Assembly: GCA_045576275.1 (NCBI GenBank)
Contig: JAZNGB010000042.1
Coordinates: 26,882-90,881, forward strand
DNA: 64,000 nt
From: Acutalibacteraceae bacterium
GTDB taxonomy: Bacteria > Bacillota > Clostridia > Oscillospirales > Acutalibacteraceae
Direction of reading: 5' to 3'
Position numbers and translations under genes: made by a program. Positions 1,606-61,171 of the stretch are shown here, piece after piece. The notes under the pieces were generated by a model. That model did no database searches, was not told where the DNA came from, and saw only the letters and a program-made list of their open reading frames with translations. Each line of letters opens with the position of its first letter. Position 1 is the first letter of the stretch.

Positions 1606-3147
1606 ATGAAACTTTTCTCAAACGGTTTTAAAAAGAGCGTAGTCTTTGTGCTTGCACTCAGCTTTGTGCTGACCTATGGTTTTTGCTTTGTTGGTGCAGC
1701 CTCTGACATTGATTATGCAATCACCAACCCGTATGCAAATGTTAACTGGGATGCTGTTGAACAGTACAAAGCAGATTTGCATTGCCACACCAATGCTTCC
1801 GACGGCAACGACACTTTGGTTGAATCGGTTGAACGTCACTATGAACTCGGTTTTGATGCACTTGCAATATCTGACCATGGTACGATTGATTATAATTGGA
1901 CCGACGGCCACGTTGATCCCGATATCAAAATTGCTCTTGGCATCAAAGATGGTGAGATTACTCCTGTTGTACCGCTGAAAGCAAACGGCACGGCTGCCAA
2001 CGGCAACAGTTATACTCTTGTGGATGCGGAAAACGGTGACACCTACTATTCTCAGACCACCGCTGATGGTGATGCTTTGCAGAATATGATGCGTGTTCCG
2101 TTCGGTATTGAACACAATGCAGCCTCTTTCAACAACTGTCATGTCAACTCCTGGTTTGTGGATTGGGGCGACGGTATGCTTGCCGGTACAAGCGACTATG
2201 TGACTGCTCTTTCCGGTGTTGCTGAAGCAGGCGGTGTCAGTGTTATCAATCATCCCGGTGAATACTCCAATGCCCGTGATGAGATCTATACGGCAGACGC
2301 TTATAACCGTGATACGGTTCATTTTAACTATATTGTTGATAAGTTTGAGAATCTGCTTCTTGACTATCCGAACTGTATCGGTATTGATATCAACTCCAAG
2401 GGTGACTCCAGAACCCGTTTTGACCGTAAACTCTGGGATTTGATGCTTACAGACCTCATTCCGCAGGGCAGAACCGTTTATGCGATTGCAACTTCCGATG
2501 CCCACAATCTTGACATTGTTGATTCCGGTTTTACGCTTCACCTGCTTGAAGATCTCAATAGCGATGCATTCAGAGCATCTCTTGAAAACGGTGAATTCTT
2601 TGCAGCAAGCAAATATGTCGGTAATGCTGATGAATTGAATCGCTATGCAACATATCTTCTTGACTCTGACGATGCTGCAAAGGTTGCATTCGGTACGCAG
2701 CTTAAAGAAATTGCAGATCAGATTTATTTTGAAAATGCAGAAGGCGGTGAAGGTACCGGCAATAAATTCCGTGCAGACAACACCGTTGCAGGTCCGCAGG
2801 TTGACAGCATCACTGTTGATGATGCAAATGATGTCATCACCATTGATTGTGACAACGCAATGCTCATTACCTGGGTTTCCGGCGGTCAGGTCGTTGCAAC
2901 CGGTAATACGGTAGATCTTGATGAACTTGAGACTGTCGGCAACTATATCCGTGCCGAAATTATCAACGAAGGCGGCGTGCTTTATACACAGGCTTTTGTG
3001 CTTGATTATGCAGGTGCTCCGACGGGCGATTTTAATAACTTCTTCTTTGATTTCGGTACCGGTATCGGCAAAATCATTCAGTTCATTCTTGAGTTTATTA
3101 CATCTCTTCCGATTTTTGATATTATCTGGGAATTTATTAAGAAGTAA
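1606..3147 (+). CDS. Secreted or membrane-associated PHP-domain phosphoesterase
   Basis: N-terminal signal/TM segment VVFVLALSFVLTYGFCFVGAAS. PHP metal-ligand motifs DLHCHTNASDG, ISDHG, INHPG and TSDAHN. Aromatic amphipathic C-terminal tail. Confidence 0.75.
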   Translation: MKLFSNGFKKSVVFVLALSFVLTYGFCFVGAASDIDYAITNPYANVNWDAVEQYKADLHCHTNASDGNDTLVESVERHYELGFDALAISDHGTIDYNWTDGHVDPDIKIALGIKDGEITPVVPLKANGTAANGNSYTLVDAENGDTYYSQTTADGDALQNMMRVPFGIEHNAASFNNCHVNSWFVDWGDGMLAGTSDYVTALSGVAEAGGVSVINHPGEYSNARDEIYTADAYNRDTVHFNYIVDKFENLLLDYPNCIGIDINSKGDSRTRFDRKLWDLMLTDLIPQGRTVYAIATSDAHNLDIVDSGFTLHLLEDLNSDAFRASLENGEFFAASKYVGNADELNRYATYLLDSDDAAKVAFGTQLKEIADQIYFENAEGGEGTGNKFRADNTVAGPQVDSITVDDANDVITIDCDNAMLITWVSGGQVVATGNTVDLDELETVGNYIRAEIINEGGVLYTQAFVLDYAGAPTGDFNNFFFDFGTGIGKIIQFILEFITSLPIFDIIWEFIKK

Positions 3148-3171
3148 TAAATAAAATATACGATTTTGCTA

Positions 3172-3200
3172 TTGACAAGTTGAAATCTTGTTGATATAAT
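3172..3200 (+). promoter_or_regulatory. Sigma-A type promoter of the rpsF-ssb-rpsR operon
   Basis: TTGACA (3172-3177), 17-bp spacer, TATAAT (3195-3200), about 75 nt upstream of rpsF. Confidence 0.6.
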
Positions 3201-3275
3201 ACTAAAGCTGTCTGAAAGGCAGCAACATCCTTGCTCTGTGGAAAACAGGGCCAAAGTCCAAAAGGAGGTGCAGAT

Positions 3276-3554
3276 ATGTCAAACTACGAAACCGTAATGG
3301 TATTCTCCCTGAAAGAGGGCGAAGAAAAGGCAAAGGGTCTTGTGGAGAAATTCCAGGCACTTATCGAAGCCAACGGTACTCTTGACAGTGTCGATGAATG
3401 GGGTCAGCGCAAACTGGCTTACGCCATCAACTACGAGACCGAAGGTTACTATGTGCTCTACACTTATGCCGCCAATATTGATTTCCCTGCAGAGATCGAT
3501 CGTGTCGCTAACATTACCGACGGCGTTCTCCGCACAATGATTATTGCTAAATAA
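3276..3554 (+). CDS. rpsF: 30S ribosomal protein S6
   Basis: RBS aaaggagg upstream of the ATG at 3276. Sequence MSNYETVMVF...DEWGQRKLAYAINYETEGYY is the S6 signature, and the rpsF-ssb-rpsR synteny is conserved. Confidence 0.95.
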   Translation: MSNYETVMVFSLKEGEEKAKGLVEKFQALIEANGTLDSVDEWGQRKLAYAINYETEGYYVLYTYAANIDFPAEIDRVANITDGVLRTMIIAK

Positions 3555-3568
3555 GGAGGGTATTTAAA

Positions 3569-3994
3569 ATGCTCAACTGTGCAATCATCATGGGTCGCTT
3601 GACTGCGGATCCCGAACTGCGTACCACATCGAACGGTCTTTCCGTAACATCTTTTTCTGTTGCGGTTGATCGCAGATTTACCAGAAGCGGGGAAGAAAAG
3701 CAGACCGACTTTATCAATGTTGTCGCTTGGCGTCAGACGGCAGATTTTGTCAGCAAGTATTTCCAGAAAGGTTCCATGATTGCCGTGCAGGGTTCTATCC
3801 AGACACGCAGTTATGAAGACAAGAACGGAAATAAGCGCACTGCTGTTGAAATTGTAGCAGACAATGTAAGCTTTTGCGGCTCCAAAGCCGAAAGCGGAAC
3901 CGGTGGTATGCGTGCCGCGGTTCCGGCAGCCTATCAGAATGCAGGCAGTGAAGACTTCAGCGAACTCGCCGGAGAAGATGACCTGCCGTTCTGA
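3569..3994 (+). CDS. ssb: Single-stranded DNA-binding protein
   Basis: OB-fold N-terminus (IIMGRLTADPELRTTSNG...FINVVAWRQTADF), Gly-rich linker and acidic DDLPF tail. Confidence 0.95.
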   Translation: MLNCAIIMGRLTADPELRTTSNGLSVTSFSVAVDRRFTRSGEEKQTDFINVVAWRQTADFVSKYFQKGSMIAVQGSIQTRSYEDKNGNKRTAVEIVADNVSFCGSKAESGTGGMRAAVPAAYQNAGSEDFSELAGEDDLPF

Positions 3995-10830: not shown

Positions 10831-10866
10831 AGAACGGAACAAGTTTTTCCGTTCTTGTATTTTTTG
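10831..10866 (+). terminator. Rho-independent terminator
   Basis: Stem agaacggaa / ttccgttct followed by tgtatttttt. Confidence 0.75.
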
Positions 10867-11158
10867 TGCGTGTTGCATAAAAAATGCTTTCAATATTTTA
10901 CAAAAAACAAGATGGTTTCAGACCGAAAAACACCTTTTTGACTTGATTATTTATTAACTTTGTGTTAATATATCTAAGAATGGATTATTATAGAGTAGTC
11001 TATGCTGAAAACCATTTGTTCAAGAAAAAGTTTACACTTTTTCACCTTATTTTGGTTAATTATTTGTCCCGACCGGCTGCAAAGAGGAGCAGTATTTTTG
11101 TGTCCGTAGCGGGATATAATGGTTAAAATAAAAAAACATAAAAAAGGAAGGGTTTTTT

Positions 11159-14100
11159 ATGGAACAGAAAGCATCTTTTACCAAGAAGCTGCTCAGCACG
11201 CTTCTGGCAATGCTGATGATCTTCTCTGCGTGTTACGCAGGGGTCGACGGCCTTGGCGGCCTTTACACCGCTTATGCCGCTGAAGGCGACTCCGAGTACT
11301 CCAAAGAAGAAGTCGCAGCATTGATCAACGCAGCAACTGCCTCCGGCTTCACACTGAGCAGCTCCGGCAACGCATGGAACTACACAGCGGACGACGGCAC
11401 GGCACTGGCTGCTGCAAGAGCCATCTTTGACTACGCGGTAAATACCTACCGTGAAGGCAAGGATGCAACATCCGCCGGTAACTCGACAAAGGCGTTGTAT
11501 GACAAGTTTGATGCAGACTTCAACGGCTTGTATACCAGTAAAGCATCTGCAAGACAGCTCGTCAAAAACGTCCTGAATCCCGACGGCACAGACGTGTATT
11601 CTTACGAGAGTCCCGGTACAAAGACTGGTATTACCGGTGCAGAAACCACAGACTCCATGTCTAAAGGTGCTGATGTTTCCGGCACATATCCGGTTGCCTC
11701 TTACCCCAATTACTATGCATCTTCCGAGACCGGTACGATCACAAAGACCGTTGAAATTCAGATTGATATGGAAAAATATCTTCTGACCTTTGCAACAATT
11801 GAGGATATTCCTTCAACTATTTACACCAATGTAAAGTACTCCTATGCACACACCTATTCCAGCACTGCAACGGTAACGGATGTTTCTTCCAGATCCACAA
11901 CGAGCACGAGTGGTTGTAACACCACAACAACCTATTATTACACACCCACCATCTCTACCAGCTACTGGAACTACATGACCGCAAAGCCCACCAAGCAGGA
12001 AACCAAGGATAAGACCGTCCGCAAGACATTGCTTACCCTTGAAAAGTACTTCGATGAAGATCTTCTTGCGATCACCAAGGACGAAATGCTTGCCATGAAT
12101 CTTGCTGACATCACCTCCCTGTACAAGACCACGGATCTGATGTACAACAACATCAAAAATGCAGACGGCACTCGCAAATTCAGCGATAATGTTCTCAATC
12201 ACTTCGGTTTGAGCTCTGCTGCCATTCATCAGTTCATGACAGATGTTTATTTTGCATACAGAGTGGCAGCAGCAAAGTACAACATCGACAATCTGAACAC
12301 CCTTATCGGTACCGAATACAATGTAAACAGCTATTCGCAGATGTCTGCTCTGTATTCAAAGACCAGCACCGCTTACAACACTGTTTTCAGTCTTGATGAT
12401 GAAATCAAAAACTACCTCATCAACGAAGGCGGCTACGGCGATCAGTACTATGCAGCCATTGCCCTCAAGGCAACCGCTGAAAGCTACAATGCTACGCTGA
12501 AGGAAATTATGACCGAGCAGAAGCTCGAAGAAACCGTGGCATCCATGGTTGCAACCTACAATCAGTATTATTCCAAGCTTAATAAAGAGGATATCGAAAC
12601 TCCCACTGATGCAGAAGTTATCGGTCTCGTGCAGAAGGTCAAGGGCTTTGATTCTGTCATTGCTTCTTACACAACCAAGTCCTACTACAGAACCTACTGG
12701 ACAACCGAATACGAGGCAGCATGGAAAGATTTCAGTGCAAAGCTTGCCGAGGTTTATGAAGTACGCGGTCTGAAGGCAACTTTCCAGACTCAATACGACT
12801 ACTTCCTGCCCATCATCTACACCACTATGATCGATGATCTTAATAATGAAGATCTGATCGCGCTGCACTCCGAGCTTGATACCAAACTCAGTGAATTGAG
12901 AACCACTTACACTGATGTTGCAAACGTATGGGGCTACACCATTGCAGACAAGATTTTCACCGTCAAATATGAAGGTTCCGATTATCTCCTGCAGACCCTC
13001 ATTGACAATGTCAAGTCAACCGGTAAGGAAGCAGCAAAGACTGTTCTCATTGCAAGAAACGATGCACAGCTGGACACCATCTGGGCATACCACGCTGTCA
13101 CCACCGTTGACTTCTCTAACTTTGCTTCCATTAAGTCCACGCTGACTTACTTCGACTATGATCTTTATGATTATGTAAGCAGCCAGGGCTGGCTTACCAC
13201 CGATGCAACAACCAAGTATGCGGATGTGCAGACCCTGCTTGACAGATACCATGCATTCTCCACTTCTGACGGTAAGACCTTCTTTAATGAAAGCTTTACC
13301 TTCAAACTTGCAGACGGCACCTACGGCACCCGTTATGCAGGCAGCCAGTATGATGCTGATGGCAATCAGATCGGCTATCCCGCTGACATTGTCAGAGACG
13401 GCGCAGAAGACAACTATGTTGTAACCGAAGCAAAGCTTCTCAATACTGTTGACCGTATTGATAACTTCATCGTTTCCCGTGACTTCGGTGCTCTCATCGG
13501 TCTTACGGATGCAGAAGATGAAGAAACCTATGTTGATCTTGCTACTTATCTTGAGCAGATGCTCAATGAAATGCTCTACACCAACGATATGATGAACACC
13601 CTCGTCGGTGCGATCTATCCGATGATTGTTGATCTTCTCAATACGGAACTGATCGGTATGCTCGCAGATATGGGTACCAATGATAACCCGGCAGCATCCG
13701 CTTGTATCGATATCGGTGAAATGACCGGTGGCGACGGTTCCGGCCATCTGTATGTTTATATGGATGACGACCTGTTCAACGGTCAGCAAAAGCAGCGCTA
13801 TCTGGATGTTGTTCTTGCTGATGCAGGTCTTTATGTCTATCCGCAGACCCTTGCTGACTCTCTTCTGATGTCTGACCCTGTATCTTTCGGTGTCGGCACA
13901 CCCATTTACACTGCCCTCAAGGCAGCCGGCAGAGACTGGACACAGCTTGTCAAGGCAGATGACCCCGAAACCGAAATGGTTGACGAAACCAAGGTTCTCG
14001 AATTCGATTGGGGCGTTTATGACGAAGATTCCTTCGTAGAAAAGCTTGCCTGCGTATTTGATTCACTGCTTCCGCTTCTCAACGCTGTGCTTACAGGTAA

Positions 14101-17100
14101 AACCTTTGAAGAGGTTCTTGCAAACGCTGCTTACGGTTATTCAACAGATACAAAATATATAGTTAATGTTGGTAAGCTTGCTATTTTCGGTGACCTCAGA
14201 CTTACGATCCCCGGACTTACCGTTTATAACGATGTTCTTGTTCCTCTCTTCAATGTGCTCGGCGTTGATAAGATCCCCACTCTCAAGCAGAATGCTTCGG
14301 GTGAAGAACTCGTAAAGGCAATCGTTGAGCCGTTGCTGGGCGTTATTGACGAAGTGCTTGAAAACCCGATTTCCACAGTGCTTGAAATTTTCCCGAATCT
14401 TGTATACTTCCTTTCCATGGATACAATTCAGGAAATGCTCAATTCTCTGAATATCAAACTTACCCTCAAGGTTGAAGCTGAAGTCGATAAGGACAATTCC
14501 GGTACACTTGTTGACTTGCTTGGTGGTACATTGCTTAGCCTTCTTGGTGACAAACTTACCTTTGATGTTGAATTAGCCATTGCTGACCTGATCGACCTGT
14601 ACGATATGCTCGGCTTTGAAATTTCCGACTTCAACGAGGTCATCAAGGGCATCGGTCCCATGCTCGGCGATCTGACCGGCGGCGAAGAGGGTGAAGGCGG
14701 TCTTGATCTTGCCTCCATTCTCGGAAATCTGCCTCCCATTCAGCAGCAGGAAATCATCTTCTGTTCCGACTGGAGCACGTTCTCGAACGGCCAACCCAAT
14801 CTTGTTGCCAACAAGGGCGACCTGATGTATTGGTTCATCAACTATGCAGTGCAGCTGCTTCAGCCCGATGAAAACGGCAACAGCCTGTTGACCGGTCTGC
14901 TCGGTGAAATGGATCCTTCCATTACAAATATTATTGATAATGTTGTATATCAGTTCAGCAGCAATCCCAGAGGCGCTCTGGCTGCCATCGTTGAACTTCT
15001 CAATCCCGTAACCTATGATCTTCAGGAAATGGATTGGGTTGAAGGCACATGGAATTATAACGGCATTGCAGGTACAAATGCTGCCGATATGGTTTATCTG
15101 AGCTACTCCAATGACTGGACTGAAGACAAGGCAAACGCTCTTGTTGAAGAAATCGATCCTCTCGTTGCATCCGTTCTCGAAATGGTCGAAATGGACCTCG
15201 GTGATGCTGCAAACCTCGGTGAATACCTGCAGAACATGCTCGGTGATCTCTTCACCAACGAAACCATCACCTCTCTTGTTGAAATGCTCGGCGGCCTCGG
15301 CGATTCTCCCAGTGCTGTCATCAACGACATCATCAAGAATCAGGTCGGTATCGACCTCGGCTCCTGGTTTGTTGCTTTTGGTTATCTCTTCCCGGCAGAA
15401 ACCTGGGCAGAGGATGCTGAAATCATTCCTTACGGCCACAGAACCTATGTCAACAACTTCGGTGTTGAAGGTGTTGCAAACGAAGACGGCACCATTACCT
15501 GGCACTTCAACAGAACACCTCTCAATGACGGTGATGCTTACACCTTCGTCAACATTCTGACCAGACTTCTCGGTCCTGCCGAAATTCTTATCAAGTTCCT
15601 GTTTGCAGGCGAAAACATCTCTGCATTTGCTGATCTTGTAAGACTCCACGGTTATGAAACCTACTCCACAACCCTCGGCCTTCTCTTTGAAGTCCTCGGT
15701 GTTGAAAACCTTCCTTCTCAGGCTGATTTCGATGCAGACACCATGGGCAGCTTCAGCAACATGCTGTTCGCTCTGCTTGACTGGTTCTATGCACTCACAG
15801 GCTCCGACGACATGATCGCTCAGCTTCTCGAAGTCATCCCCGATCTGTTCTATTATATTGAAAGCAACGGTCTGTCCGTCCTGCTTCATAACCTTCTCAT
15901 GCCTGTTCTTGTTCTTGTTGATACCGTCAGACCTCTTATCAACCTCGACATCAACGGCGTTCTCTCCCTCATCGTTTCCGAGCTTGTCAACTACGGCACA
16001 ATGGATATCAACGTCATTCTGCAGTACATCGTCAACGGTGTATGGCTCAATGATGACCTTGATTACAAGTTCATTTCCGTCGATATCAAGAACCTCAGAG
16101 TTTCTGACATTCTTGTTATTGTTGACAACATCTTCGGTACAAATCTTGCTCAGAGCAACCTTGTTACTTATGGTGTAACCGGTCTTTGCTCCGGTGTTGA
16201 AACTGTCAACACCAACGGTGCAGGCACCATCAACAAGACCACCGTTACCGCTGCTGATGCAATCACCATCATCCTCACCGGTCTGCTTGAAGCCCTCGAA
16301 CAGCCCGCACAGGATGAAACCATGACCAACGGCGAAGTCCTCTTCGCATTCCTCGGTGAAATGACCGAAAACGAAACCATTGCCGGCCTGTATCCTACCA
16401 TCAAGACTCTGCTTGCAGGCATTGAAGTGGAATACACAGCACCCAACTGGGCTTACATGGCTCCCGGTGGCGATGTTGCAAACTTTGTCAATGCAAGAGA
16501 AACCATCAGCTATCTTGCTTACACCACTGACTGGACCGCAGTCAAGGCTGAAGCTGTTTACAACAAGCTTGACGATCTTCTTGCTACTCTGATTCCCGAA
16601 GAAACCTTCGACTTCAATATTGCAACCCTTCTCAACAGCATGCTCGAAGACAATGTTTACTCTGATGCAAACCTCAACATGATTGTTGAGACCATCGTAA
16701 ACCTCTTCGCAGACATCAATTCCACTCTGTTCGATGTAATCGATGTCGTTATTGATACCGATATCGCATCCTGGTTCGCAATGTGCGAAGAACAGACTGA
16801 TGCCGAAACCGGCGAAACCAAGCTTGTTTGCACCAAGGATTGGGGCGTTGACGAAGCTTCCGACAAGAGAGCAACTTTCATTGCTGCTCTTGAAGAAGTT
16901 CTTGCTCCCGCAAACGCACTGCTCGCATGGGCATTCTTCGGTGACAACTTCGAATTCTTCACCGGTTCCGAAAAGGACGAAGACGGCAACTATATCTATA
17001 ATGATGTTATTGCCATCAACGGCGGCGAAGGTTACGAACGTGCAATCGTTCCGATCCTCAGAGCTCTTACTCTTGAACCCGCTCCCGCATCCGCTTACTA

Positions 17101-20100
17101 TGATGCAACCACCGGCAAGTACGATGCAGCAGCAGCTGTTTCCGGTATCCTCAACACTGTATTCGATCTCATCGATTCTCTGACCGATGCTCCGAGTGTT
17201 ATCGGCGCTGCTATGGAACTGATTCCGAACGTCATTTATTTCCTGAATGCTGACGGTGTCAAGTCTGCAGTCAACAATCTGTTGGCTCCCATCAACGGTC
17301 TGCTTGATATGGTCGGTCCTCTCCTTGGCGAAGAAATCTCCCTTGCAGCTCTGCTTGGCGATCTTCCCATCGACATTACCGACATCACCACAGAATCCGT
17401 TCTTGCACTGCTCACCGAACAGTTCGGTGTACAGTTTGCTACCGAAACACTTGATCTCGGTGCAATCCTCAGCACTCTGTATGTTGGTGAACTTGCACCT
17501 TACACCTATGCTGACAACCTCACAGGTTACACCCTCGATGTCAGCGCTGCTGAATACGATGTGCTTACTCTCGTTATCAGCTTTGCTCTTGAACTGTTCA
17601 CCATCAACGGCGATCTGTTTGCAGGTCTGTTTGGTGAAGACGGTGAAGCAATCGTCGATAGCATCATTGCTCTCCTTGGAGGCTATACCGTAACTTATAC
17701 CGATCCCGATTGGGCTTACATGTATGAAGGCGAGGATGCACTCGCAAAACTTGCAGCAGACGGCTTCCCGGCATTTGAGCACACGTATCTTGCATACTCC
17801 ACCGACTGGACCGAAACTACCGCACAGGGTGTTTACAACGCACTGGATGACATTCTCGTTCTTGTCATGGATTCTGTTGCCGACGGCAACACCATCGCTC
17901 AGCTCATCGAAGGCGTTCTGACTGATAATGTTTACACCGATGCAAACCTTGTTGCGATCGTTGAACTCATCGTCAACGCAATCGCAGGCTTCGATGCTTC
18001 TCTGCTTGAGCTTATCGATGTCGTGCTCGATACCAACATTGCCGCTTGGTTCGCAATGTGTGATGTTGATGCTGACGGCAAATATGTAGTGAAAGAAAAC
18101 TACTTCGCAGTTGATACTGCTGCCGACAAGAAGGCTGCTTTCGTAGCAGGTCTCAAGGAAGTTCTTGCTCCCGCAAATGAACTGCTTGCATGGCTGTTCT
18201 TCGGTGACTCTTACACCTTCTTCAACGGCTCCGACGGTGAAGCCATCATCACTCTCATCGGTGGCGAAGGCTACGCACAGGGACTTGTGCCGATCTTCGA
18301 AGCACTCGGCTGCACAATGCCTGCTGCTGACACCTTCAAGGAAGGCGAAACCTACAACGTAGGCAACGCTGTTGCTGCAATCCTCGACGCTGCACTTGCA
18401 CTTGTCGATACCATCTCTGCAAACCCGATTGAAGAAGTATTTGCACTCATTCCGAATCTGCTTTACTTCATCAATGCAAACGGTCTGAACAGCGCAGTTT
18501 CCAACCTGCTTGCTCCCGTCAACGGCGTTCTCGCTGAACTCAGCGATGTCGTTGGTGCAGATAACCTGCAGGCACTGCTTACTGATCTTATCGACTTTGA
18601 TCTCAGCAACCTCGGCACAGATGCAGTTCTTGCACTTCTTGTTGATAAAACCGGCTTTGTTATGAATGACGAAATGAAAGATGTCATCAAGAACATCTAC
18701 GGTCTCGGTGTTGCAGCTGCTTTCACTTCTGCAAACGGTGAAACCGCTTACAAGGTAGACATTACCGATAGAGAATACGATGTTCTTACCGTCCTTCTTT
18801 CCTTCGTTCTCGATGCATTCAACCTGAACGGCGAACTCTTCTCCGGTCTCCTCGGCGCAGAAACCTACAATGCAATCGTTGCACTGCTTCAGGGCTGCAC
18901 CGCAACATATACGCATATCAACTGGGCATACATGTATGACGGCAATACCGCAAAGCTTGCTTCTGACGGTTTCCCGGCTGTTGAACTTAAGTATCTTGCA
19001 TACTCCACTGATTGGACAGAAGAAGTTGCTCAGGGTGTTTACGATGCACTCGATGATATCCTTGCACTCGTTCTTCCGTCTCTCCTCGGCGACAATGAAA
19101 ATGTTGCTGCTCTCGTAAACGGCCTTCTGAATGACAGCGTTTACACCGACGAGGTTCTCAATTCTCTTGTTGAACTCATCGTCAATGCACTTGCTTCTCT
19201 TGATGAAAGTTTTTACAACGGCGTTGGTGCACTGCTTGCAGCAGACATCTCTGCATGGTTCACGATGTGTGAAGAAAATGCAGATGGCGAATATGAATGC
19301 ACCAAGGATTGGGGCGTTGATGCCGCAACCGATAAGAAGGCTGCTTTCGTAGCAGGCATCAAGGATGTCCTTGCTCCTGCAAACGAACTGCTTGCATGGC
19401 TGTTCTTCGGCGGTTCTTATGAATTCCTGAACGGCACGACCAAGGAAGTTCTCATCACCATCAACGGTGGCGAAGGCTATGCTTACGGCCTTGTTCCGAT
19501 CTTTGAAGCACTCGGCTGCACAATGCCTGCTGCTGAAACCTTCAAGGATGGTGATACCTACAACGTAGGCAACGCAGTTGCTGCAATCCTCGATGCAGCT
19601 CTTGCACTCGTTGACAAGATCTCCGGCAACCTTGCAGAAGAAGTATTCAACCTTCTTCCCAACCTGCTTTACTTCATCAATTCCGACGGTATCTCCGCAA
19701 GCGTCAACAACCTTGTTGCTCCTGTGATTGCTGTTCTCACAACCCTTAAGCCCGTTGTTGATGTTTCGCTGAATGAGCTGATCGTTGATGCCATCGGCAT
19801 TGATATCTTCAATCTGACAACAGAAGCTCTGTTCAAATACCTTGCTTCTGATGCAGTTGGTTTCATCACAAATGCAGATATGGTATCTGCTGTTGTCAAC
19901 ATCTATGCTGTCGGTGATGCTGTGGCTTACACCTCTGCAAACGGCAGAACCGCTTACAGAATTGACAGCAATAAGGCTGATGTCCTTACCGTTGTTCTTT
20001 CCTTCGCACTCGATGCATTCAACCTTAATGCAGAACTCTTCTCCGGTCTCCTTGGCGAAGAAACCTATGAGGCTGTTTACAACCTCATCCGTGGCGCTGC

Positions 20101-23050
20101 TATGGAATTCGAGTACCAGGATATCAACTGGAACTACATGGAAACCGAAGCTACACCCGATGCTGACGGTGTTGTAACAACATTGCCCGCACACGCAGAA
20201 GATTCTGTTTATGCAATTTACACCAAGTATGCAAACAACTGGAACAAAGAAACTGCTGAATATGTAAATGAAATCATTGATACTCTTGTTCAGAGCTTCT
20301 TTGAAAACAACTCCCTTGGTCAGATGCTTGACAATGCAATTGCTAAGGGTGTGTATACCGATGATCTGCTCAATGGCCTGATTGAAATGGTTGTTGAACT
20401 CATCTATGAATACGGTTCCATCATTGAATCCGCAGGCGTTCTGCTCGGTGCAGAAAAGCTTGTTGACTGGTTCGATTACTGCACAATCACCACCGATGAA
20501 AACGGCAAGGTTGTTGATGTAACCGTAACCCACGACTTCGGTATTGACGAAGCTGCTACCAACGACGAAAAGAGAGAACTCTTCCTCAACTCCTTTGCAG
20601 AAGTTCTCGAACCTGCTTACAGACTTCTCGCTTGGCTGTTCTTCGCTGAAGACTTCACCTTCTTCAACGGCTACACCAACGATCCGCTGATCACCCTCAC
20701 CGGTGGCAAGGGCTACGAAAAAGCACTCGTTCCGCTGCTTGAAGCTCTCGGTGCTGCACTTCGTGTTGACGGCGAAATCGTAATGCCCGGCACTGCCGAA
20801 TACAGCTACCTCAACGGCGAATCCGGTCTGAAAGCTGCTTCCGAATACTATGTAGACGGCGAGCTTGACATGGCTGCATTCGTCAAGGATCTCTTCGGTA
20901 TGGTTACCGATTGGCTCTTCACCATCTGCGGCGATCTCAAGAACCCGGGTGAACTCGGCGTTATCGGCGTCATGCTCGAAATGCTGCCCAACGTTGTTTA
21001 CAACATCAACGCAGGCACGCTGGATGCAGTGATCAACAACCTGCTCCTGCCCGTCAACGAGCTCATCGGTCACCTCGGTGCATTCGGTCTTGAACTTGAT
21101 ATTGAAGCTCTTCTTGCCGATCTCGGCTTCGGTTGCGATGCAGAAGGCAACGCACTGTTCAACTGGTACGGCATCTTCAATCTCGTTGAAGAACTTGTTG
21201 ATCTCTATTGGCCTGACTTCGATCAGGAATTCCTTGCAACCCTCTACTTCGGTCAGATGGTACCTTACACCTCTGCAAACGGTGAACAGGCTTACTACAT
21301 GACCTTCCTTGAAGACGGTGTTGAAAATACCGGCAAGGGTACAAGAGCAGACCTTATCACAATCCTCATCTCCTTCGTTGCTGATGCAGTTGCTGATAAG
21401 AGAAACGAACCCAGACTTGTCGGTTTGATCGGTCAGAACATCTATAATGTCATCTACACCTACATCTCCGGCAATGCAGTTTCCGTCGATATGCAGGAAT
21501 TTGATTGGCTCTTCACAGAGTATGCCGGTACCGGAAAAGTGCTTTCTCCCATGCTTGTAGGCAGTCTGCAGGGTACACCTTACGGCAAGTACTTTACACC
21601 TGAAATGGGCCGCTACATGGAAGAAAATCTTCCTGAGTTTGTTGATACCACAATTGAACTGCTCGGCATTGAAAGCGAAGGCGGCGAAGAAACATACGCA
21701 AGCATTGAAGAGGTTCTCGATTCCCTTGTTGGTGAAACCATTTATACCAAGGCAAATCTTGAAGCGATTGTCAATGCTATCCCCGGACTTCTTGTATCTG
21801 CTGAGGAAGCACTCGGCACCTACCTGTTTGAGCTTATTGTGGATGTCCTTGATAAGGCACTCGGCATTGATTTGACCCATTGGGATGACTACACCGTTGC
21901 AGACTTTGAGGACGGCGACAGAGAGACTTTTGTCAACGAGCTGATCAGAATGCTCGAACCGCTGTATCCCGTTCTGAAGTGGTTGCTGACAAGTGAGGAT
22001 CTGATTGCTCTGTTCCACAGCGCAGACGGCTCCGAAAGAGATATGATCGTTGTTGAAGGTGCTGAGGGTTATGCTTACGGTATCATCCCGATCATGGAAG
22101 CTCTTTCTTGTGAAAACATCAGCACACCTGAAGAATATAAGCTTGCAATTGAACGCGATGAAGAATTCCTTCTTAGAAAGATTCTCGATCCGATTCTTGA
22201 TAAGCTTGACTCAATTCTTGCCGATCCTGTCAATGAAATCTTTGAGGTTCTTCCGGGTGTCATCTACTTCCTGAACTCAAACGGTCTTGATACGGTTATC
22301 AAGAATACCGCAAACGCTATCTTCGCAGTTCTTGAAAACATCAAACCCGCTATCGGTGAGCTTGATGTTTATGAGCTCATCGGCTTCAATCCCAAGGAAC
22401 TGAATATCAATACGCTTATCGAAGAGCTCCTTGTTGATCTCGAGGAAAGCACAGGTCTCACATTTGCAGATACTGCAATGGATGCAATTGTTGAACTGAC
22501 TGTCGGTGAGGTTGTTGAATTTACCTCCAAGAACGGCAAGACTGCATACACCATGAAGTATGCATCGGCAGAAGATAGAGCAGATATGACATCTGTCCTG
22601 CTGCGCTTTGTCATGAACTTTGTGACTGTTGAAGAAAATGCAAGATCCATCAAGATCATGCTGAAGGATTCTTTGAGTGAAGACGGTTATAAGTTCGTAT
22701 GCGCACTGCTTGACAACTTTGTTGACATGGCAAAGACGGCAGATGGTATGGATAAGATCCTTTACACCATTTACTACATCTTTATCGGTGCTGAAGGTGC
22801 TATTGAAGGTGTTGACGGTACTCTTGATGAAGCAAACGACAACTATGGCTTCATGCAGGATCTTCTTGAACAGAGTGATGCTCCGTTCCTGAAGGATATT
22901 GCCGGAACTCTGGGCGACTTCCTTGATAACAATCTCAAGGATATCGTCGATACAGATGGCATTGCTCCGAACGGACTGATCAAGTTCTTCCAGAGCCTTA
23001 CTGCTTTCTTTGAAAAGATTGTTAACTGGTTTAAGAATCTGTTCAACTAA
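11159..23050 (+). CDS. Giant secreted acidic repeat protein (3,963 aa), function unknown
   Basis: Uninterrupted 11.9-kb ORF with RBS aaaaggaaggg. Signal peptide LLSTLLAMLMIFSACYAG...AYA/AEG. Strong 3-nt periodicity and C-ending codon bias. Terminators on both sides. No domain recognised. Confidence 0.9.
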   Translation: MEQKASFTKKLLSTLLAMLMIFSACYAGVDGLGGLYTAYAAEGDSEYSKEEVAALINAATASGFTLSSSGNAWNYTADDGTALAAARAIFDYAVNTYREGKDATSAGNSTKALYDKFDADFNGLYTSKASARQLVKNVLNPDGTDVYSYESPGTKTGITGAETTDSMSKGADVSGTYPVASYPNYYASSETGTITKTVEIQIDMEKYLLTFATIEDIPSTIYTNVKYSYAHTYSSTATVTDVSSRSTTSTSGCNTTTTYYYTPTISTSYWNYMTAKPTKQETKDKTVRKTLLTLEKYFDEDLLAITKDEMLAMNLADITSLYKTTDLMYNNIKNADGTRKFSDNVLNHFGLSSAAIHQFMTDVYFAYRVAAAKYNIDNLNTLIGTEYNVNSYSQMSALYSKTSTAYNTVFSLDDEIKNYLINEGGYGDQYYAAIALKATAESYNATLKEIMTEQKLEETVASMVATYNQYYSKLNKEDIETPTDAEVIGLVQKVKGFDSVIASYTTKSYYRTYWTTEYEAAWKDFSAKLAEVYEVRGLKATFQTQYDYFLPIIYTTMIDDLNNEDLIALHSELDTKLSELRTTYTDVANVWGYTIADKIFTVKYEGSDYLLQTLIDNVKSTGKEAAKTVLIARNDAQLDTIWAYHAVTTVDFSNFASIKSTLTYFDYDLYDYVSSQGWLTTDATTKYADVQTLLDRYHAFSTSDGKTFFNESFTFKLADGTYGTRYAGSQYDADGNQIGYPADIVRDGAEDNYVVTEAKLLNTVDRIDNFIVSRDFGALIGLTDAEDEETYVDLATYLEQMLNEMLYTNDMMNTLVGAIYPMIVDLLNTELIGMLADMGTNDNPAASACIDIGEMTGGDGSGHLYVYMDDDLFNGQQKQRYLDVVLADAGLYVYPQTLADSLLMSDPVSFGVGTPIYTALKAAGRDWTQLVKADDPETEMVDETKVLEFDWGVYDEDSFVEKLACVFDSLLPLLNAVLTGKTFEEVLANAAYGYSTDTKYIVNVGKLAIFGDLRLTIPGLTVYNDVLVPLFNVLGVDKIPTLKQNASGEELVKAIVEPLLGVIDEVLENPISTVLEIFPNLVYFLSMDTIQEMLNSLNIKLTLKVEAEVDKDNSGTLVDLLGGTLLSLLGDKLTFDVELAIADLIDLYDMLGFEISDFNEVIKGIGPMLGDLTGGEEGEGGLDLASILGNLPPIQQQEIIFCSDWSTFSNGQPNLVANKGDLMYWFINYAVQLLQPDENGNSLLTGLLGEMDPSITNIIDNVVYQFSSNPRGALAAIVELLNPVTYDLQEMDWVEGTWNYNGIAGTNAADMVYLSYSNDWTEDKANALVEEIDPLVASVLEMVEMDLGDAANLGEYLQNMLGDLFTNETITSLVEMLGGLGDSPSAVINDIIKNQVGIDLGSWFVAFGYLFPAETWAEDAEIIPYGHRTYVNNFGVEGVANEDGTITWHFNRTPLNDGDAYTFVNILTRLLGPAEILIKFLFAGENISAFADLVRLHGYETYSTTLGLLFEVLGVENLPSQADFDADTMGSFSNMLFALLDWFYALTGSDDMIAQLLEVIPDLFYYIESNGLSVLLHNLLMPVLVLVDTVRPLINLDINGVLSLIVSELVNYGTMDINVILQYIVNGVWLNDDLDYKFISVDIKNLRVSDILVIVDNIFGTNLAQSNLVTYGVTGLCSGVETVNTNGAGTINKTTVTAADAITIILTGLLEALEQPAQDETMTNGEVLFAFLGEMTENETIAGLYPTIKTLLAGIEVEYTAPNWAYMAPGGDVANFVNARETISYLAYTTDWTAVKAEAVYNKLDDLLATLIPEETFDFNIATLLNSMLEDNVYSDANLNMIVETIVNLFADINSTLFDVIDVVIDTDIASWFAMCEEQTDAETGETKLVCTKDWGVDEASDKRATFIAALEEVLAPANALLAWAFFGDNFEFFTGSEKDEDGNYIYNDVIAINGGEGYERAIVPILRALTLEPAPASAYYDATTGKYDAAAAVSGILNTVFDLIDSLTDAPSVIGAAMELIPNVIYFLNADGVKSAVNNLLAPINGLLDMVGPLLGEEISLAALLGDLPIDITDITTESVLALLTEQFGVQFATETLDLGAILSTLYVGELAPYTYADNLTGYTLDVSAAEYDVLTLVISFALELFTINGDLFAGLFGEDGEAIVDSIIALLGGYTVTYTDPDWAYMYEGEDALAKLAADGFPAFEHTYLAYSTDWTETTAQGVYNALDDILVLVMDSVADGNTIAQLIEGVLTDNVYTDANLVAIVELIVNAIAGFDASLLELIDVVLDTNIAAWFAMCDVDADGKYVVKENYFAVDTAADKKAAFVAGLKEVLAPANELLAWLFFGDSYTFFNGSDGEAIITLIGGEGYAQGLVPIFEALGCTMPAADTFKEGETYNVGNAVAAILDAALALVDTISANPIEEVFALIPNLLYFINANGLNSAVSNLLAPVNGVLAELSDVVGADNLQALLTDLIDFDLSNLGTDAVLALLVDKTGFVMNDEMKDVIKNIYGLGVAAAFTSANGETAYKVDITDREYDVLTVLLSFVLDAFNLNGELFSGLLGAETYNAIVALLQGCTATYTHINWAYMYDGNTAKLASDGFPAVELKYLAYSTDWTEEVAQGVYDALDDILALVLPSLLGDNENVAALVNGLLNDSVYTDEVLNSLVELIVNALASLDESFYNGVGALLAADISAWFTMCEENADGEYECTKDWGVDAATDKKAAFVAGIKDVLAPANELLAWLFFGGSYEFLNGTTKEVLITINGGEGYAYGLVPIFEALGCTMPAAETFKDGDTYNVGNAVAAILDAALALVDKISGNLAEEVFNLLPNLLYFINSDGISASVNNLVAPVIAVLTTLKPVVDVSLNELIVDAIGIDIFNLTTEALFKYLASDAVGFITNADMVSAVVNIYAVGDAVAYTSANGRTAYRIDSNKADVLTVVLSFALDAFNLNAELFSGLLGEETYEAVYNLIRGAAMEFEYQDINWNYMETEATPDADGVVTTLPAHAEDSVYAIYTKYANNWNKETAEYVNEIIDTLVQSFFENNSLGQMLDNAIAKGVYTDDLLNGLIEMVVELIYEYGSIIESAGVLLGAEKLVDWFDYCTITTDENGKVVDVTVTHDFGIDEAATNDEKRELFLNSFAEVLEPAYRLLAWLFFAEDFTFFNGYTNDPLITLTGGKGYEKALVPLLEALGAALRVDGEIVMPGTAEYSYLNGESGLKAASEYYVDGELDMAAFVKDLFGMVTDWLFTICGDLKNPGELGVIGVMLEMLPNVVYNINAGTLDAVINNLLLPVNELIGHLGAFGLELDIEALLADLGFGCDAEGNALFNWYGIFNLVEELVDLYWPDFDQEFLATLYFGQMVPYTSANGEQAYYMTFLEDGVENTGKGTRADLITILISFVADAVADKRNEPRLVGLIGQNIYNVIYTYISGNAVSVDMQEFDWLFTEYAGTGKVLSPMLVGSLQGTPYGKYFTPEMGRYMEENLPEFVDTTIELLGIESEGGEETYASIEEVLDSLVGETIYTKANLEAIVNAIPGLLVSAEEALGTYLFELIVDVLDKALGIDLTHWDDYTVADFEDGDRETFVNELIRMLEPLYPVLKWLLTSEDLIALFHSADGSERDMIVVEGAEGYAYGIIPIMEALSCENISTPEEYKLAIERDEEFLLRKILDPILDKLDSILADPVNEIFEVLPGVIYFLNSNGLDTVIKNTANAIFAVLENIKPAIGELDVYELIGFNPKELNINTLIEELLVDLEESTGLTFADTAMDAIVELTVGEVVEFTSKNGKTAYTMKYASAEDRADMTSVLLRFVMNFVTVEENARSIKIMLKDSLSEDGYKFVCALLDNFVDMAKTADGMDKILYTIYYIFIGAEGAIEGVDGTLDEANDNYGFMQDLLEQSDAPFLKDIAGTLGDFLDNNLKDIVDTDGIAPNGLIKFFQSLTAFFEKIVNWFKNLFN
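13470..23047 (+). repeat. About seven tandem protein-level repeats (400-510 aa each) inside the giant ORF
   Basis: The anchor motif W(A/N)YM (variants WNYN, WLF) recurs at aa 1293, 1764, 2185, 2589, 2991 and 3450, that is nt 15035, 16448, 17711, 18923, 20129 and 21506. Each unit repeats LAYSTDWTE, NVYTDANL..IVELIVN, DWGVD...AF...LAPAN.LLAW.FFG, GGEGY...VPI.EALG, IPNL.YF.N, NLL.P.N and SANG.TAY. A more degenerate first copy lies at about aa 770-1290. Units 3 and 4 are very similar at DNA level by eye (identity not computed). Confidence 0.75.
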
Positions 23051-23063
23051 AAACCCTTATAAA

Positions 23064-23095
23064 AGAGCCTGCGGTTTTTCCGCAGGCTCTTTTTA
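23064..23095 (+). terminator. Rho-independent terminator of the giant gene
   Basis: Stem agagcctgcgg / ccgcaggctct followed by a T-run. Confidence 0.85.
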
Positions 23096-34096: not shown

Positions 34097-34161
34097 CGCC
34101 GTCACCTCGCTTTCGTATGTGTTATGAAATCGATTTCACATACATGGTCGCACCTGCGACG

Positions 34162-37851: not shown

Positions 37852-38409
37852 GTGTATGACGGGCATATCAGTGCTCTGTGGTGAAAGTCCACCGAGGCGT
37901 AGTTACCGACGAACTCAAAAGCGACTCCCAAGGTTTGCATCGTGAGGTGTAGGCGAGAAGAAGGGATAGCGAAATCGTAGCCTGACGAACAGAAACTCGG
38001 TACAAAGGCGAAATAGGCGGATAAGTTGGCCCAAAGCAACGAAGTCCAAAAGGTAACCGTAACCCTATTGCGTAAACCGAGCAGGTAGACGAGGAAAGAG
38101 TATTGGTTTATCCCGTGAGGTCTCATAGACAGAGAAATCTGTAGTAACAACGAACTATGAGAAGTCAGCAGAGGTCATAGTACCGAGAAATCGGGAAGGA
38201 CCGAACAGTTCAATATCACATATAAAAAGATGTTCTGCTTGGAATTGATATGTAAAGTAGTTGAAACGTATATGATACCAAATACAGGAAGTCTTAGATT
38301 AGAATAAGCGGAAGCGTTGAAACAAATATGAGATTGCGAACTGAACCGCCGTATGCCGAACGGCACGTACGGTGGTGTGAGAGGAGGGAGAAAATCCCTC
38401 CTACTCGAT
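37852..38409 (+). mobile_element. ORF-less class IIC (bacterial class C) group II intron, about 558 nt
   Basis: The 5' end GUGUAUGACGGGCAU...GGUGAAAGUCCAC aligns with the Oceanobacillus iheyensis IIC intron as I recall it. The recalled match includes GAAGUCAGCAGAGGUCAUAGUACC...GGAAGGACCGAACAG. Domain V is GAACCGCCGUAUGCCGAACGGCACGUACGGUGGUGUG (38343-38379), with a compensatory GC pair relative to the remembered O.i. sequence. Domain VI is a hairpin with a bulged A, and the 3' end is ...CUCGAU. The domain IV region is only about 130 nt and has no ORF. Confidence 0.85.
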
Positions 38410-53766: not shown

Positions 53767-53855
53767 TTTGCACAAACTCCTTTTTTGATCGGAAAAAGAA
53801 AACTGCTTTTCCGAATATTTTTATGCAGGTTTGTAAAATATAATAAACCAATTTA

Positions 53856-61110: not shown

Positions 61111-61171
61111 ATATCCACCTCCTTTTTTTGCATATAAAAGCGCTTTCATAAATAAAGACCGAAAAGAGAAT

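What the first reader, a model, noticed from the sequence alone, without database searches (positions are those of the whole stretch)
11159..23050. Monocistronic 3,963-aa secreted repeat protein with no recognisable domain
A single 11.9-kb ORF is bracketed by intrinsic terminators (10831-10866 upstream, 23064-23095 downstream) and encodes a signal-peptide protein.
- After a unique N-terminal region of about 770 aa, it consists of about seven tandem units of 400-510 aa.
- The units share a fixed series of motifs: LAYSTDWTE, NVYTDANL..IVELIVN, W(F)AMC, DWGVD..DK.AAF...L.EVLAPAN.LLAW.FFG, GGEGY...VPI.EALG, IPNL.YF.N..G, NLL.P.N and SANG.TAY.
- The protein is strongly acidic and apparently helix-rich.
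- It has no LPXTG motif, SLH domain, dockerin, LRR, Ig-like or Cys-rich module that I can recognise, and no partner genes nearby.
- The repeat unit is far longer than usual adhesin repeats, so it may define an undescribed domain family or surface structure.
Basis: partly seen in the sequence, partly recalled or inferred. Interest (0 to 1): 0.8.

Follow-up and report, generated by a model that had tools for sequence, protein, structure and literature searches.

The report
Giant membrane-tethered surface repeat protein
This 3,963-residue secreted protein of a gut Clostridia bacterium is built from seven copies of a roughly 410-residue domain that matches no known family or solved fold, and its newly noticed C-terminal tail probably pins it to the cell membrane, which would make it a founding example of a large, unnamed family of giant, fast-evolving cell-surface proteins.

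Summary
The ORF (11159-23050, +) is real. It is monocistronic, flanked by terminators and starts with a Sec signal peptide.

- **Layout:** a unique 715-aa head, one degenerate unit and six full units of 402-466 aa (25-61% identical).
- **No known relative:** Pfam, NCBIfam, PDB sequence profiles and Foldseek with a confident AlphaFold model (pLDDT 86) all find nothing.
- **Not an orphan:** a profile search finds 571 protein clusters of up to 7,691 aa, all named 'hypothetical'. The genome-resolved relatives are almost all gut Acutalibacteraceae/Oscillospiraceae MAGs.
a conserved 105-aa C-terminal tail ends in a cationic, Phe-rich amphipathic helix, (FFxKIxx)x3. This is the strongest hydrophobic moment in the protein.
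- **Tail looks like an anchor:** 9 of 150 relatives carry a classical TM helix instead (8 with a KKKK-type stop-transfer). The same tail closes unrelated secreted enzymes (subtilase, phosphoesterases).
- **Expression and evolution:** the gene has the strongest codon bias in the window and a promoter/RBS conserved across five species. It diverges faster than its neighbour and is mosaic, with a breakpoint at a unit boundary.

Best reading: an abundant surface stalk tethered to the membrane by its C-terminus (adhesin or shield). The fold and the anchor are new; the kind of protein is known.

The parts
10831..10865 (+). Terminator of the upstream MatE gene. It isolates the giant gene transcriptionally.
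   Evidence: 9-bp stem plus T-run. (-12.5 kcal/mol, z -2.5). Conserved in 5 species.
10938..10971 (+). Conserved sigma-A-like promoter candidate: -35 TTGATT at 10943-10948 (overlapping TTGACT at 10938-10943), 17-nt spacer, extended TG at 10963-10964, -10 TAATAT at 10966-10971. This implies a 5' UTR of about 180 nt.
   Evidence: Almost every column is invariant across 5 species whose proteins are 42-78% identical. It falls below the consensus scan's 9-of-12 threshold, so the assignment is inferred. No Rfam family matches the leader.
11146..11152 (+). Ribosome-binding site GGAAGGG, 6 nt before the ATG.
   Evidence: The block from about 11122 to the start codon is 100% conserved in 5 species apart from one single-base gap.
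11159..23050 (+). Giant ORF: 3,963 aa, 433 kDa, net charge -414.
11159..11278 (+). Sec signal peptide (aa 1-40). The likely SPase I site is AYA|AE. A permissive lipobox IFSA|C at Cys25 cannot be excluded.
   Evidence: Family N-termini: 112 relatives have SP-like starts, 89 with A-x-A, and only 5 with a strict lipobox.
11279..13423 (+). Unique N-terminal 'head' (aa 41-755), rich in Tyr, Thr and Asn. No similarity to the unit or to any known family.
   Evidence: It is the least conserved region between species.
13424..15046 (+). Degenerate unit U0 (aa 756-1296).
   Evidence: E 6e-16. (hhalign probability 99.5% for aa 951-1249).
15047..16444 (+). Unit U1 (aa 1297-1762).
16445..17707 (+). Unit U2 (aa 1763-2183). 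Its 5' edge coincides with the mosaic breakpoint against L002.
17708..18919 (+). Unit U3 (aa 2184-2587). This is the unit that was modelled.
   Evidence: pLDDT 86.2, pTM 0.84.
18920..20125 (+). Unit U4 (aa 2588-2989), 61% identical to U3.
20126..21502 (+). Unit U5 (aa 2990-3448).
21503..22732 (+). Unit U6 (aa 3449-3858).
22733..23047 (+). Conserved C-terminal tail domain (aa 3859-3963). About 105 aa follow the last unit in most relatives.
22967..23047 (+). Terminal amphipathic helix PNGLIKFFQSLTAFFEKIVNWFKNLFN, with family consensus (FFxKIxx)x3. Proposed in-plane membrane anchor.
   Evidence: - Its hydrophobic moment of 0.62 ranks 1 of 3,946 windows, and its net charge is +2.
- A TM helix replaces it in 9 of 150 relatives.
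- The same tail ends a subtilase, two phosphoesterases and a 626-aa protein.
23061..23094 (+). Strong bidirectional intrinsic terminator.
   Evidence: sequence. (-25.2 kcal/mol, z -7.1).

Best explanation
The gene encodes an abundant giant cell-surface protein of a Gram-positive gut bacterium (Acutalibacteraceae-like, spore-forming, dockerin-using).

Proposed mechanism:
1. The protein is exported by Sec, and its N-terminal signal peptide is removed.
2. The very last 27 residues form a cationic, Phe-rich amphipathic helix that lies in the outer leaflet of the cytoplasmic membrane and tethers the C-terminus. This is the way the C-terminal helix tethers E. coli PBP5.
3. The chain of seven compact domains of about 410 aa (61% helix, a fold with no known relative) forms a long, strongly acidic stalk through and beyond the wall.
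4. The stalk presents the unique 715-aa N-terminal head at its tip.

The overall plan is that of stalk-and-tip surface proteins such as staphylococcal Ebh, so the likely role is adhesion and/or a steric, electrostatic surface shield. Variable unit number, fast divergence and recombination at unit boundaries diversify it between lineages.

Shown here: the ORF, the signal peptide, the repeat anatomy, the family, the absence of known domains or folds, the properties and modularity of the tail, the codon bias and the mosaicism.

Inferred: membrane tethering by the helix, rod-like extension, high expression, and the adhesin or shield role.
For: **Export.** Signal peptides are present family-wide.

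**C-terminal tether.**
- A tail of about 105 aa is conserved across the family.
- The terminal helix has the largest hydrophobic moment in the protein, and it is the only net-positive segment among the regions compared, in a protein with net charge -414.
- 9 of 150 relatives end instead in a 19-23-aa hydrophobic helix, 8 of them followed by KKKK-type stop-transfer residues.
- The same tail ends a cell-envelope-type subtilase (S8 + PA + Fn3), two secreted metallophosphoesterases and a 626-aa secreted protein. It therefore behaves as a portable C-terminal module, sitting where anchors sit in such enzymes.
- Precedent: the 18-aa C-terminal amphipathic helix of PBP5 tethers it to the outer face of the membrane (PMC2909392).

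**Stalk of discrete domains.**
- The unit model has pLDDT 86.2 and pTM 0.84.
- The unit contains no internal sub-repeats.
- Relatives carry from 2 up to about 19 matched stretches.

**Abundance.**
- Nc is 39.0 for the gene (36.5 for the units), against 44-57 for all but one of the 22 other genes measured (the exception has Nc 39.6).
- Rare codons TTA/CTA/TCA occur at 2.0 per 1,000.
- The promoter-like element and the RBS block are invariant across 5 species.
- A strong terminator follows the gene.

**Surface-type evolution.**
- The protein is 42-78% identical to orthologues whose adjacent MatE is 85-88% identical.
- Blocks are 91-100% identical in DNA between species whose flanks are about 74-85% identical, with a breakpoint at the U1/U2 boundary.
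- At least three MAGs carry paralogues.

**Analogy.** Ebh has a signal sequence, helical repeats and a C-terminal TM anchor (PMC4856396).
Against: - No experiment or expression data were available, and no cultured organism carrying the gene was identified.
- The terminal helix has a heptad pattern, so it could instead drive oligomerisation.
- The helix is too amphipathic to span a membrane, and in-plane anchoring of a 430-kDa protein is unproven.
- The window protein's signal peptide matches a permissive lipobox (IFSAC). If it is lipidated, the N-terminus would also be membrane-bound and the 'distal head' picture would be wrong.
- No multi-unit model could be made, so the rod shape is assumed.
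- No ligand-binding or enzymatic domain was recognised in the head.
- Mosaicism rests partly on MAGs from one study and could in principle reflect chimeric assembly.
Confidence: 0.55

Rival explanations
1. It is an S-layer-like or coat protein. In this reading it is a very abundant secreted protein that self-assembles into a lattice or brush over the wall, and the C-terminal tail serves as the attachment or assembly element rather than as a single-molecule stalk anchor.
For: - Strong codon bias.
- A monocistronic gene with a leader of about 180 nt and a strong terminator.
- Very acidic, with few Cys (0.5%).
- Fast divergence between species.
All of these are classic S-layer gene traits, by established knowledge.
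Against: - No SLH or CWB2 domain is present.
- The size of 433 kDa and the variable number of tandem 410-aa units (from 2 to about 19 matched stretches) are unlike lattice-forming S-layer proteins.
- Some genomes carry paralogues.
Confidence: 0.2
2. It is a released extracellular protein, such as a matrix or biofilm component, or a soluble binder of dietary or host polymers. In this reading the C-terminal helix mediates oligomerisation as a coiled coil rather than membrane attachment.
For: - The heptad periodicity (FFxKIxx)x3 has hydrophobic residues at a/d-like positions.
- No wall-anchoring motif is present.
Against: - A bona fide TM helix replaces the tail in 9 of 150 relatives, 8 with KKKK-type residues after it.
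- The same tail occurs on a subtilase and phosphoesterases that do not need to oligomerise.
Confidence: 0.13
3. It is a toxin or effector of the polymorphic or large-clostridial type, or a mobile-element or phage structural protein.
For: It is large and secreted, and the gene is mosaic.
Against: - The C-terminus is the most conserved end, not a variable toxin tip.
- No immunity-like or other conserved neighbour exists.
- No toxin, Rhs, RTX or glucosyltransferase domain was found.
- The context is chromosomal housekeeping: SpoVAD, RecR, DnaX, ArgRS, tmRNA.
- Synteny with MatE holds in 5 species.
- tblastn finds no match in phage or plasmid collections.
Confidence: 0.04
4. It is an assembly artefact, a pseudogene or a non-coding open frame.
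For: The gene is repetitive, and a 2,481-codon antisense ORF lies inside it.
Against: - Repeat copies are only 63-88% identical in DNA.
- Intact orthologues of 3,500-4,000 aa occur in several genomes.
- 571 related clusters exist.
- The antisense ORF is in register with the sense frame and is explained by near-absence of TTA, CTA and TCA codons.
Confidence: 0.01

Closest known systems
Ebh / Embp giant surface proteins of staphylococci
   Same: Both have an N-terminal signal sequence, a very long array of mostly helical tandem modules that form a stalk, and a C-terminal membrane anchor rather than LPXTG (PMC4856396). Both are giant and vary in size or truncation between strains. The likely role, adhesion or surface shielding, is also shared.
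   Different: - No FIVAR, GA or DUF1542 modules are present (Pfam negative).
- The unit is about 410 aa rather than about 126 aa, and Foldseek finds no similarity to any PDB entry.
- The anchor here is an amphipathic helix. A TM helix occurs only in a minority of relatives.
- The taxonomic home is different: gut Acutalibacteraceae/Oscillospiraceae (Clostridia).
C-terminal amphipathic-helix membrane anchors of low-molecular-weight PBPs (E. coli PBP5/PBP6)
   Same: In both, a Sec-exported protein ends in an aromatic/Lys amphipathic helix of about 18-27 aa at the extreme C-terminus. In PBP5 this helix tethers the protein to the outer face of the cytoplasmic membrane (PMC2909392). The hydrophobic moment is comparable or higher here.
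   Different: - There is no sequence homology.
- The helix here is a regular three-heptad FFxKIxx motif preceded by a conserved Pro-Asn-Gly cap and an acidic linker.
- It is attached to very different cargo in Gram-positive Clostridia.
- Its function is untested.
LPXTG-anchored stalk-and-tip adhesins (MSCRAMMs, SasG, Rib/alpha-like)
   Same: They share the topology: signal peptide, unique N-terminal region, variable number of tandem repeats, C-terminal attachment. Repeat number varies and the genes are mosaic and recombine.
   Different: - No LPXTG motif or sortase signal is present (read directly from the sequence; none in the relatives either).
- The repeats are large and helical rather than Ig-like or beta-rich.
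Firmicute S-layer proteins (SLH or CWB2 anchored)
   Same: Both are acidic, secreted and probably highly expressed. Both genes are monocistronic with a long leader and a strong terminator, and both diverge fast.
   Different: - No SLH or CWB2 domain is present.
- The protein is 2-10 times larger.
- Its architecture is tandem modules with variable copy number.
Cellulosome/amylosome scaffoldins of Ruminococcus-like bacteria
   Same: Both are large modular secreted proteins of the same bacterial group. The organism uses dockerins (window 44893-53775).
   Different: No cohesin, dockerin, CBM or X module is present.

Membership tests
Ebh/Embp family | FIVAR (PF07554), GA (PF01468) or DUF1542 repeat modules | tested here: not met
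   Pfam scan of the whole protein at E <= 1 gave only one sub-threshold DUF6043 hit. The 28 diverse units gave no hit to these families.
Ebh/Embp family | C-terminal transmembrane anchor | tested here: not met
   Besides the signal peptide, the window protein has no TM-grade segment near its C-terminus. However, 9 of 150 relatives do have one at the C-terminus.
LPXTG sortase-anchored surface proteins | LPXTG motif followed by a hydrophobic segment and a basic tail at the C-terminus | tested here: not met
   The last 60 aa, read directly, contain no LPxTG. The regex found none in the 150 relatives. NCBIfam gave no hit.
S-layer proteins of Firmicutes | SLH (PF00395) or CWB2 (PF04122) wall-binding domains | tested here: not met
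   Pfam negative. Nine other family members were also Pfam-negative.
S-layer proteins of Firmicutes | Self-assembly into a 2-D lattice | not testable with these tools
   Needs electron microscopy or biochemistry.
Cellulosomal/amylosomal scaffoldins | Cohesin and/or dockerin modules | tested here: not met
   Pfam negative. In contrast, the dockerin protein at 44893-53775 is readily detected.
RTX / T1SS giant adhesins | Ca-binding nonapeptide repeats, a C-terminal T1SS signal and no Sec signal peptide | tested here: not met
   No HemolysinCabind hit. A Sec signal peptide is present. The host is Gram-positive, judging from the sporulation gene SpoVAD.
Bacterial lipoproteins | Lipobox L-[AS]-[GA]-C at the end of the signal peptide | tested here: inconclusive
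   IFSAC at aa 21-25 fits the permissive PROSITE-style pattern but not the strict one. Family-wide, 5 of 112 fit the strict pattern, 33 of 112 fit the permissive one, and 89 of 112 have A-x-A.
PBP5-type C-terminal amphipathic anchors (a mechanism, not a homology family) | Sec-exported protein ending in a strongly amphipathic helix | tested here: met
   muH is 0.60-0.62 over the last 18-24 aa, ranking 1 of 3,946 windows, and net charge is +2.
PBP5-type C-terminal amphipathic anchors (a mechanism, not a homology family) | The helix is necessary and sufficient for membrane association | not testable with these tools
   Needs fractionation or liposome assays. Indirect support comes from the TM-helix replacement in relatives.
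The unnamed giant-protein family itself (571 clusters) | Signal peptide, N-region of about 1,250-1,300 aa, tandem units of about 410 aa with the GxEGY..P.LEALG, LPN.IYF.N and TSANG..AY motifs, and a tail of about 105 aa ending in FFxKI heptads | tested here: met

The most novel reading that the evidence does not exclude
The terminal (FFxKIxx)x3 helix is a previously undescribed, general cell-surface retention signal of gut Oscillospirales-type Clostridia. It would be used by giant stalk proteins and by secreted enzymes alike, in place of LPXTG or SLH anchoring. The roughly 410-aa unit is a genuinely new protein fold that builds an abundant, recombining surface fibril layer, which would amount to a new kind of Gram-positive surface structure.
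Probability: 0.33. Interest if true: 0.8.

Novelty: new variant of a known kind. Interest (0 to 1): 0.64.

Why it matters
Acutalibacteraceae and Oscillospiraceae are abundant but poorly cultured gut bacteria, and almost nothing is known about their cell surfaces.

- **A major surface component.** This family includes hundreds of clusters and proteins of up to 7,691 aa. It is probably highly expressed and may dominate the surface these bacteria show to host, phage and food particles. Yet it is invisible to all domain databases.
- **A new domain.** The family offers a confident, apparently new fold of about 410 aa that could be curated as a Pfam or NCBIfam entry.
- **A candidate anchoring signal.** The tail would improve prediction of surface proteomes in these bacteria.
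- **A case of mosaic evolution.** Recombination at unit boundaries resembles what is seen in surface antigens.

All of these points can be tested directly with a peptide, a reporter fusion or cryo-ET.

Tried and rejected
**Searches that led nowhere**
- The search for homologous proteins with the whole protein timed out.
- With one unit, a 28-unit profile or the tail, it returned only a 512-aa fragment (P0001, a partial unit fused to LRRs) and fragments of 50-80 aa. The word-index search evidently does not return this family. The exhaustive profile search does.
- The exact protein and the neighbouring RecR are not in the contig collection.

**Negative results that bear on identity**
- Foldseek with the first, shallow model (pLDDT 68.7) was negative. 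It stayed negative with the good model against PDB and BFVD.
- PDB sequence and profile searches were negative for the unit, the head and the tail.
- NCBIfam has no model for the tail.
- Rfam has no family for the leader.
- The unit has no internal sub-repeats, so it is not a HEAT- or TPR-like solenoid.
- No partner gene is conserved.

**Literature**
- The giant-gene survey (bioRxiv 10.1101/2023.11.21.568195) describes RCC1-type Oscillospiraceae giants, not this family.
- The giant proteins of the 'Hodor' megaplasmids carry S-layer and MBG domains and sortases, so they are different.

**Ideas rejected**
- The W-specific TATAAT at 11115-11120 as the promoter, because it is not conserved beyond L002.
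- The antisense 2,481-aa ORF as a gene.

**Could not be done**
Full report
**1.

The ORF 11159..23050 (+) is open for 3,963 codons. GGAAGGG lies 6 nt upstream of its ATG.

The upstream gene is a MatE transporter on the same strand. It ends in a hairpin plus T-run at 10831-10865 (-12.5 kcal/mol, z -2.5). The giant gene ends in a very strong bidirectional terminator at 23061-23094 (-25.2 kcal/mol, z -7.1). The next gene (DUF7674) is convergent.

The surrounding genes are chromosomal housekeeping and sporulation genes: SulP, SpoVAD, a metallophosphatase, MatE, then the giant gene, then DUF7674, an FGGY kinase, RecR, DnaX, SRP RNA, ArgRS and tmRNA.

**2. Anatomy**

- An HMM built from the units finds six complete units at aa 1297-1762, 1763-2183, 2184-2587, 2588-2988, 2990-3447 and 3449-3858. 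It also finds one degenerate unit.
- Profile-profile comparison confirms the degenerate unit, with 99.5% probability for aa 951-1249.
- aa 41-755 are unrelated to the unit.
- Units are 24-61% identical. The central pair U3/U4 is the most similar and the end units are the most divergent.
- At the DNA level, copies are only 63-88% identical over short stretches, so repeat collapse or expansion during assembly is not an issue.
- The unit has no internal sub-repeats. It is one large domain, not a solenoid of small repeats.
- The protein is 433 kDa with net charge -414.

**3. No known family and no known fold**

- Pfam and NCBIfam give nothing for the whole protein.
- Pfam gives nothing consistent for 28 diverse units and nothing significant for nine other full-length relatives.
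- PDB sequence and profile searches are empty.
- AlphaFold2 with six in-protein units gave pLDDT 68.7. With 28 diverse units it gave pLDDT 86.2 and pTM 0.84. The model is 61% helix and 8% strand, with three small hairpins.
- Foldseek with the good model found nothing. The best PDB hit has E = 0.7 and TM <= 0.18. The best BFVD hit has E = 3e-3, probability 0.30 and TM 0.11.
- No AlphaFold-DB library was available, so 'new fold' means 'no solved or viral relative detectable'.

**4. It is a large family, not an orphan**

- A profile of the six units, searched exhaustively against 1.84 billion representatives, found 571 clusters at E <= 1e-3 and 358 at E <= 1e-30. Proteins reach 7,691 aa, with up to about 19 matched stretches.
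- The names found are all 'hypothetical protein' from Clostridia or Oscillospiraceae MAGs.
- In one-genome-per-species GTDB data, 36 loci were recovered. Almost all are Acutalibacteraceae, Oscillospiraceae or 'Ruminococcus' MAGs, and the titles that name a source say goat, sheep, water deer and rabbit ('Lapin') gut samples. One bin labelled Bacteroidaceae is probably mis-binned.
- Three MAGs carry two paralogues each.
- All the genomic relatives are giant, at 2,100-5,700 aa.
- The architecture is strikingly constant. It consists of a signal peptide, about 1,250-1,300 aa before the first full unit, then one to ten full-length units (up to about 19 matched stretches), then about 105 aa.
- Neighbouring genes are conserved only among close relatives. 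No partner gene exists.
- tblastn finds no match in phage or plasmid collections.

**5.

The last roughly 105 aa are conserved family-wide. They end in xPNG-FIxFFQKIxxFFKKIxxFFKNLF-COOH, which is three heptads of FFxKIxx.

In the window protein this helix has the highest hydrophobic moment of all 3,946 windows (0.62). Of the regions compared, it is the only net-positive one (+2).

Two observations argue that it is a membrane tether.

- First, 9 of 150 representatives lack it. They end instead in a classical hydrophobic helix, which in 8 of them is followed by KKKK-type residues and a short acidic tail. That is a type-I stop-transfer anchor in the same position.
- Second, the same terminal helix closes unrelated secreted proteins found in the fetched loci:
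  - a 1,365-aa subtilase with PA and Fn3 domains (L041);
  - two signal-peptide metallophosphoesterases (L027, L029);
  - a 626-aa secreted protein (L010).

The tail is therefore a portable C-terminal module. On a cell-envelope-type protease it sits where wall or membrane anchors normally sit.

There is an established precedent for a Sec-exported protein held on the outer face of the membrane by a C-terminal amphipathic helix. It is E. coli PBP5 (PMC2909392).

No NCBIfam model or PDB chain matches the tail.

**6. Expression signals**

- The gene has the strongest codon bias in the window. Nc is 39.0 for the gene and 36.5 for the units, against 44-57 for nearly all other genes.
- TTA, CTA and TCA together occur 8 times in 3,963 codons. 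This also explains the in-register 2,481-codon antisense ORF (14573..22018) as a shadow of codon usage.
- I aligned the 350-nt upstream region from five species. It shows a nearly invariant promoter-like element, TTGATT-17 nt-TG-n-TAATAT, at window 10943-10971. It also shows a block from about 11122 to the start codon that is identical in all five species apart from one single-base gap, even though the proteins are only 42-78% identical.
- The implied leader is about 180 nt and matches no Rfam family.
- Expression itself was not measured.

**7. Evolution**

- The closest orthologue (L002, an Acutalibacteraceae MAG) is 78% identical over 3,962 aa. Other syntenic orthologues (MatE upstream) are 50-59% identical and a more distant relative (L008) is 42%, while the adjacent MatE stays at 85-88%.
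- The divergence is mosaic. Against L002, the first roughly 1,780 aa are 90-98% identical and the rest is 46-82% identical. L002's last roughly 2,180 aa are 94-100% identical to L001.
- In DNA, window 11401-16400 is 91-98% identical to L002, whereas the flanking MatE is about 80% identical. Identity then drops to 64-78% exactly at the U1/U2 boundary (nt 16445).
- This is the signature of recent recombination of gene segments between lineages, as seen in surface antigens. The caveat is that L001 and L002 are MAGs from one study, so chimeric assembly cannot be fully excluded.

**8. Interpretation**

The best-supported model is a Sec-exported, abundant, giant cell-surface stalk protein.

- Its C-terminus is held at the membrane by the amphipathic tail.
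- Seven acidic domains of about 410 aa extend through and beyond the wall.
- The unique 715-aa head sits distally.

The plan is the same as that of Ebh, which has a signal sequence, helical repeats and a C-terminal TM anchor (PMC4856396). It is also the plan of stalk-and-tip adhesins in general. The protein nevertheless fails every membership test for those families. It has no FIVAR or GA modules, no LPXTG motif, and no SLH, CWB2, cohesin or dockerin domain.

The role (adhesion, or a steric and electrostatic shield) is inferred.

Four rivals were considered:
- an S-layer-like coat;
- a released protein with an oligomerising tail;
- a toxin or mobile-element protein;
- an artefact.

The first two remain open. 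The last two are poorly supported.

One uncertainty concerns N-terminal processing. The window protein's IFSAC fits a permissive lipobox. Family-wide, however, A-x-A sites are general and strict lipoboxes are rare.

**9. Verdict**

The protein is a new variant of a known kind: a giant repeat surface protein built from an undescribed domain, with an undescribed candidate anchor.

Noticed in passing
window 44893-53775 (-): A second giant ORF of 2,960 aa. It has 13 BspA-type LRR_5 stretches, an embedded TAXI/NMT1_3 solute-binding-like domain (aa 1419-1700, E 1e-69) and a C-terminal dockerin. Finding a transporter-type binding domain inside a dockerin-bearing LRR surface protein is unusual.
   Followed up: partly
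window 14573-22018 (-): A 2,481-codon antisense ORF lies inside the giant gene. It is exactly in register with the sense codons and stays open only because the sense strand almost never uses TTA, CTA or TCA (8 of 3,963 codons). It is a shadow ORF, not a gene. Orthologues show the same effect.
   Followed up: yes
L041:6014-10108; L029:16232-17908 (-); L027:15222-16916 (-); L010:579-2456: Unrelated secreted proteins end in the same FFxKI-heptad amphipathic helix as the giant family. They are a subtilase with S8, PA and Fn3 domains, two metallophosphoesterases and a 626-aa protein of unknown function. This may be a general C-terminal retention signal in these bacteria.
   Followed up: partly
P0011, P0021, P0022 (family relatives): Some relatives have Cys-rich stretches on both sides of the amphipathic tail...DCDCDCHS... 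before it and ...FFRRLFGM..F..CECGxxHW after it. The meaning is unknown; metal binding or acylation are possibilities.
   Followed up: no
window 37936-38409 (+): Group II intron RNA domains (RF02001, RF01998, RF00029) with no obvious reverse-transcriptase ORF next to them. This may be an ORF-less or degenerate intron.
   Followed up: no
window 32804-34105 (-) and 59839-61149 (-): Two proteins of about 433 aa have ECF-type sigma-70 regions 2 and 4 in their first roughly 160 aa, followed by a long region that nothing matched. They may be sigma/anti-sigma fusions. The first sits next to a right-handed beta-helix protein (34275-35906).
   Followed up: no
window 11076-11093 (+): A small hairpin plus T-run, flagged as terminator-like, lies inside the roughly 180-nt leader of the giant gene, upstream of the RBS. 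The hairpin sequence itself is not well conserved across species. A regulatory role is untested.
   Followed up: partly
window 1606-3147 (+): A 513-aa ORF with only a weak PHP-domain hit has codon bias as strong as the giant gene's (Nc 39.6).
   Followed up: no
L002 17001-18500 vs L001: Downstream of the giant gene there is another block that is 97-100% identical in DNA between two species whose flanks are about 80-90% identical. Either recombination extends beyond the giant gene or the MAGs share assembled segments.
   Followed up: no
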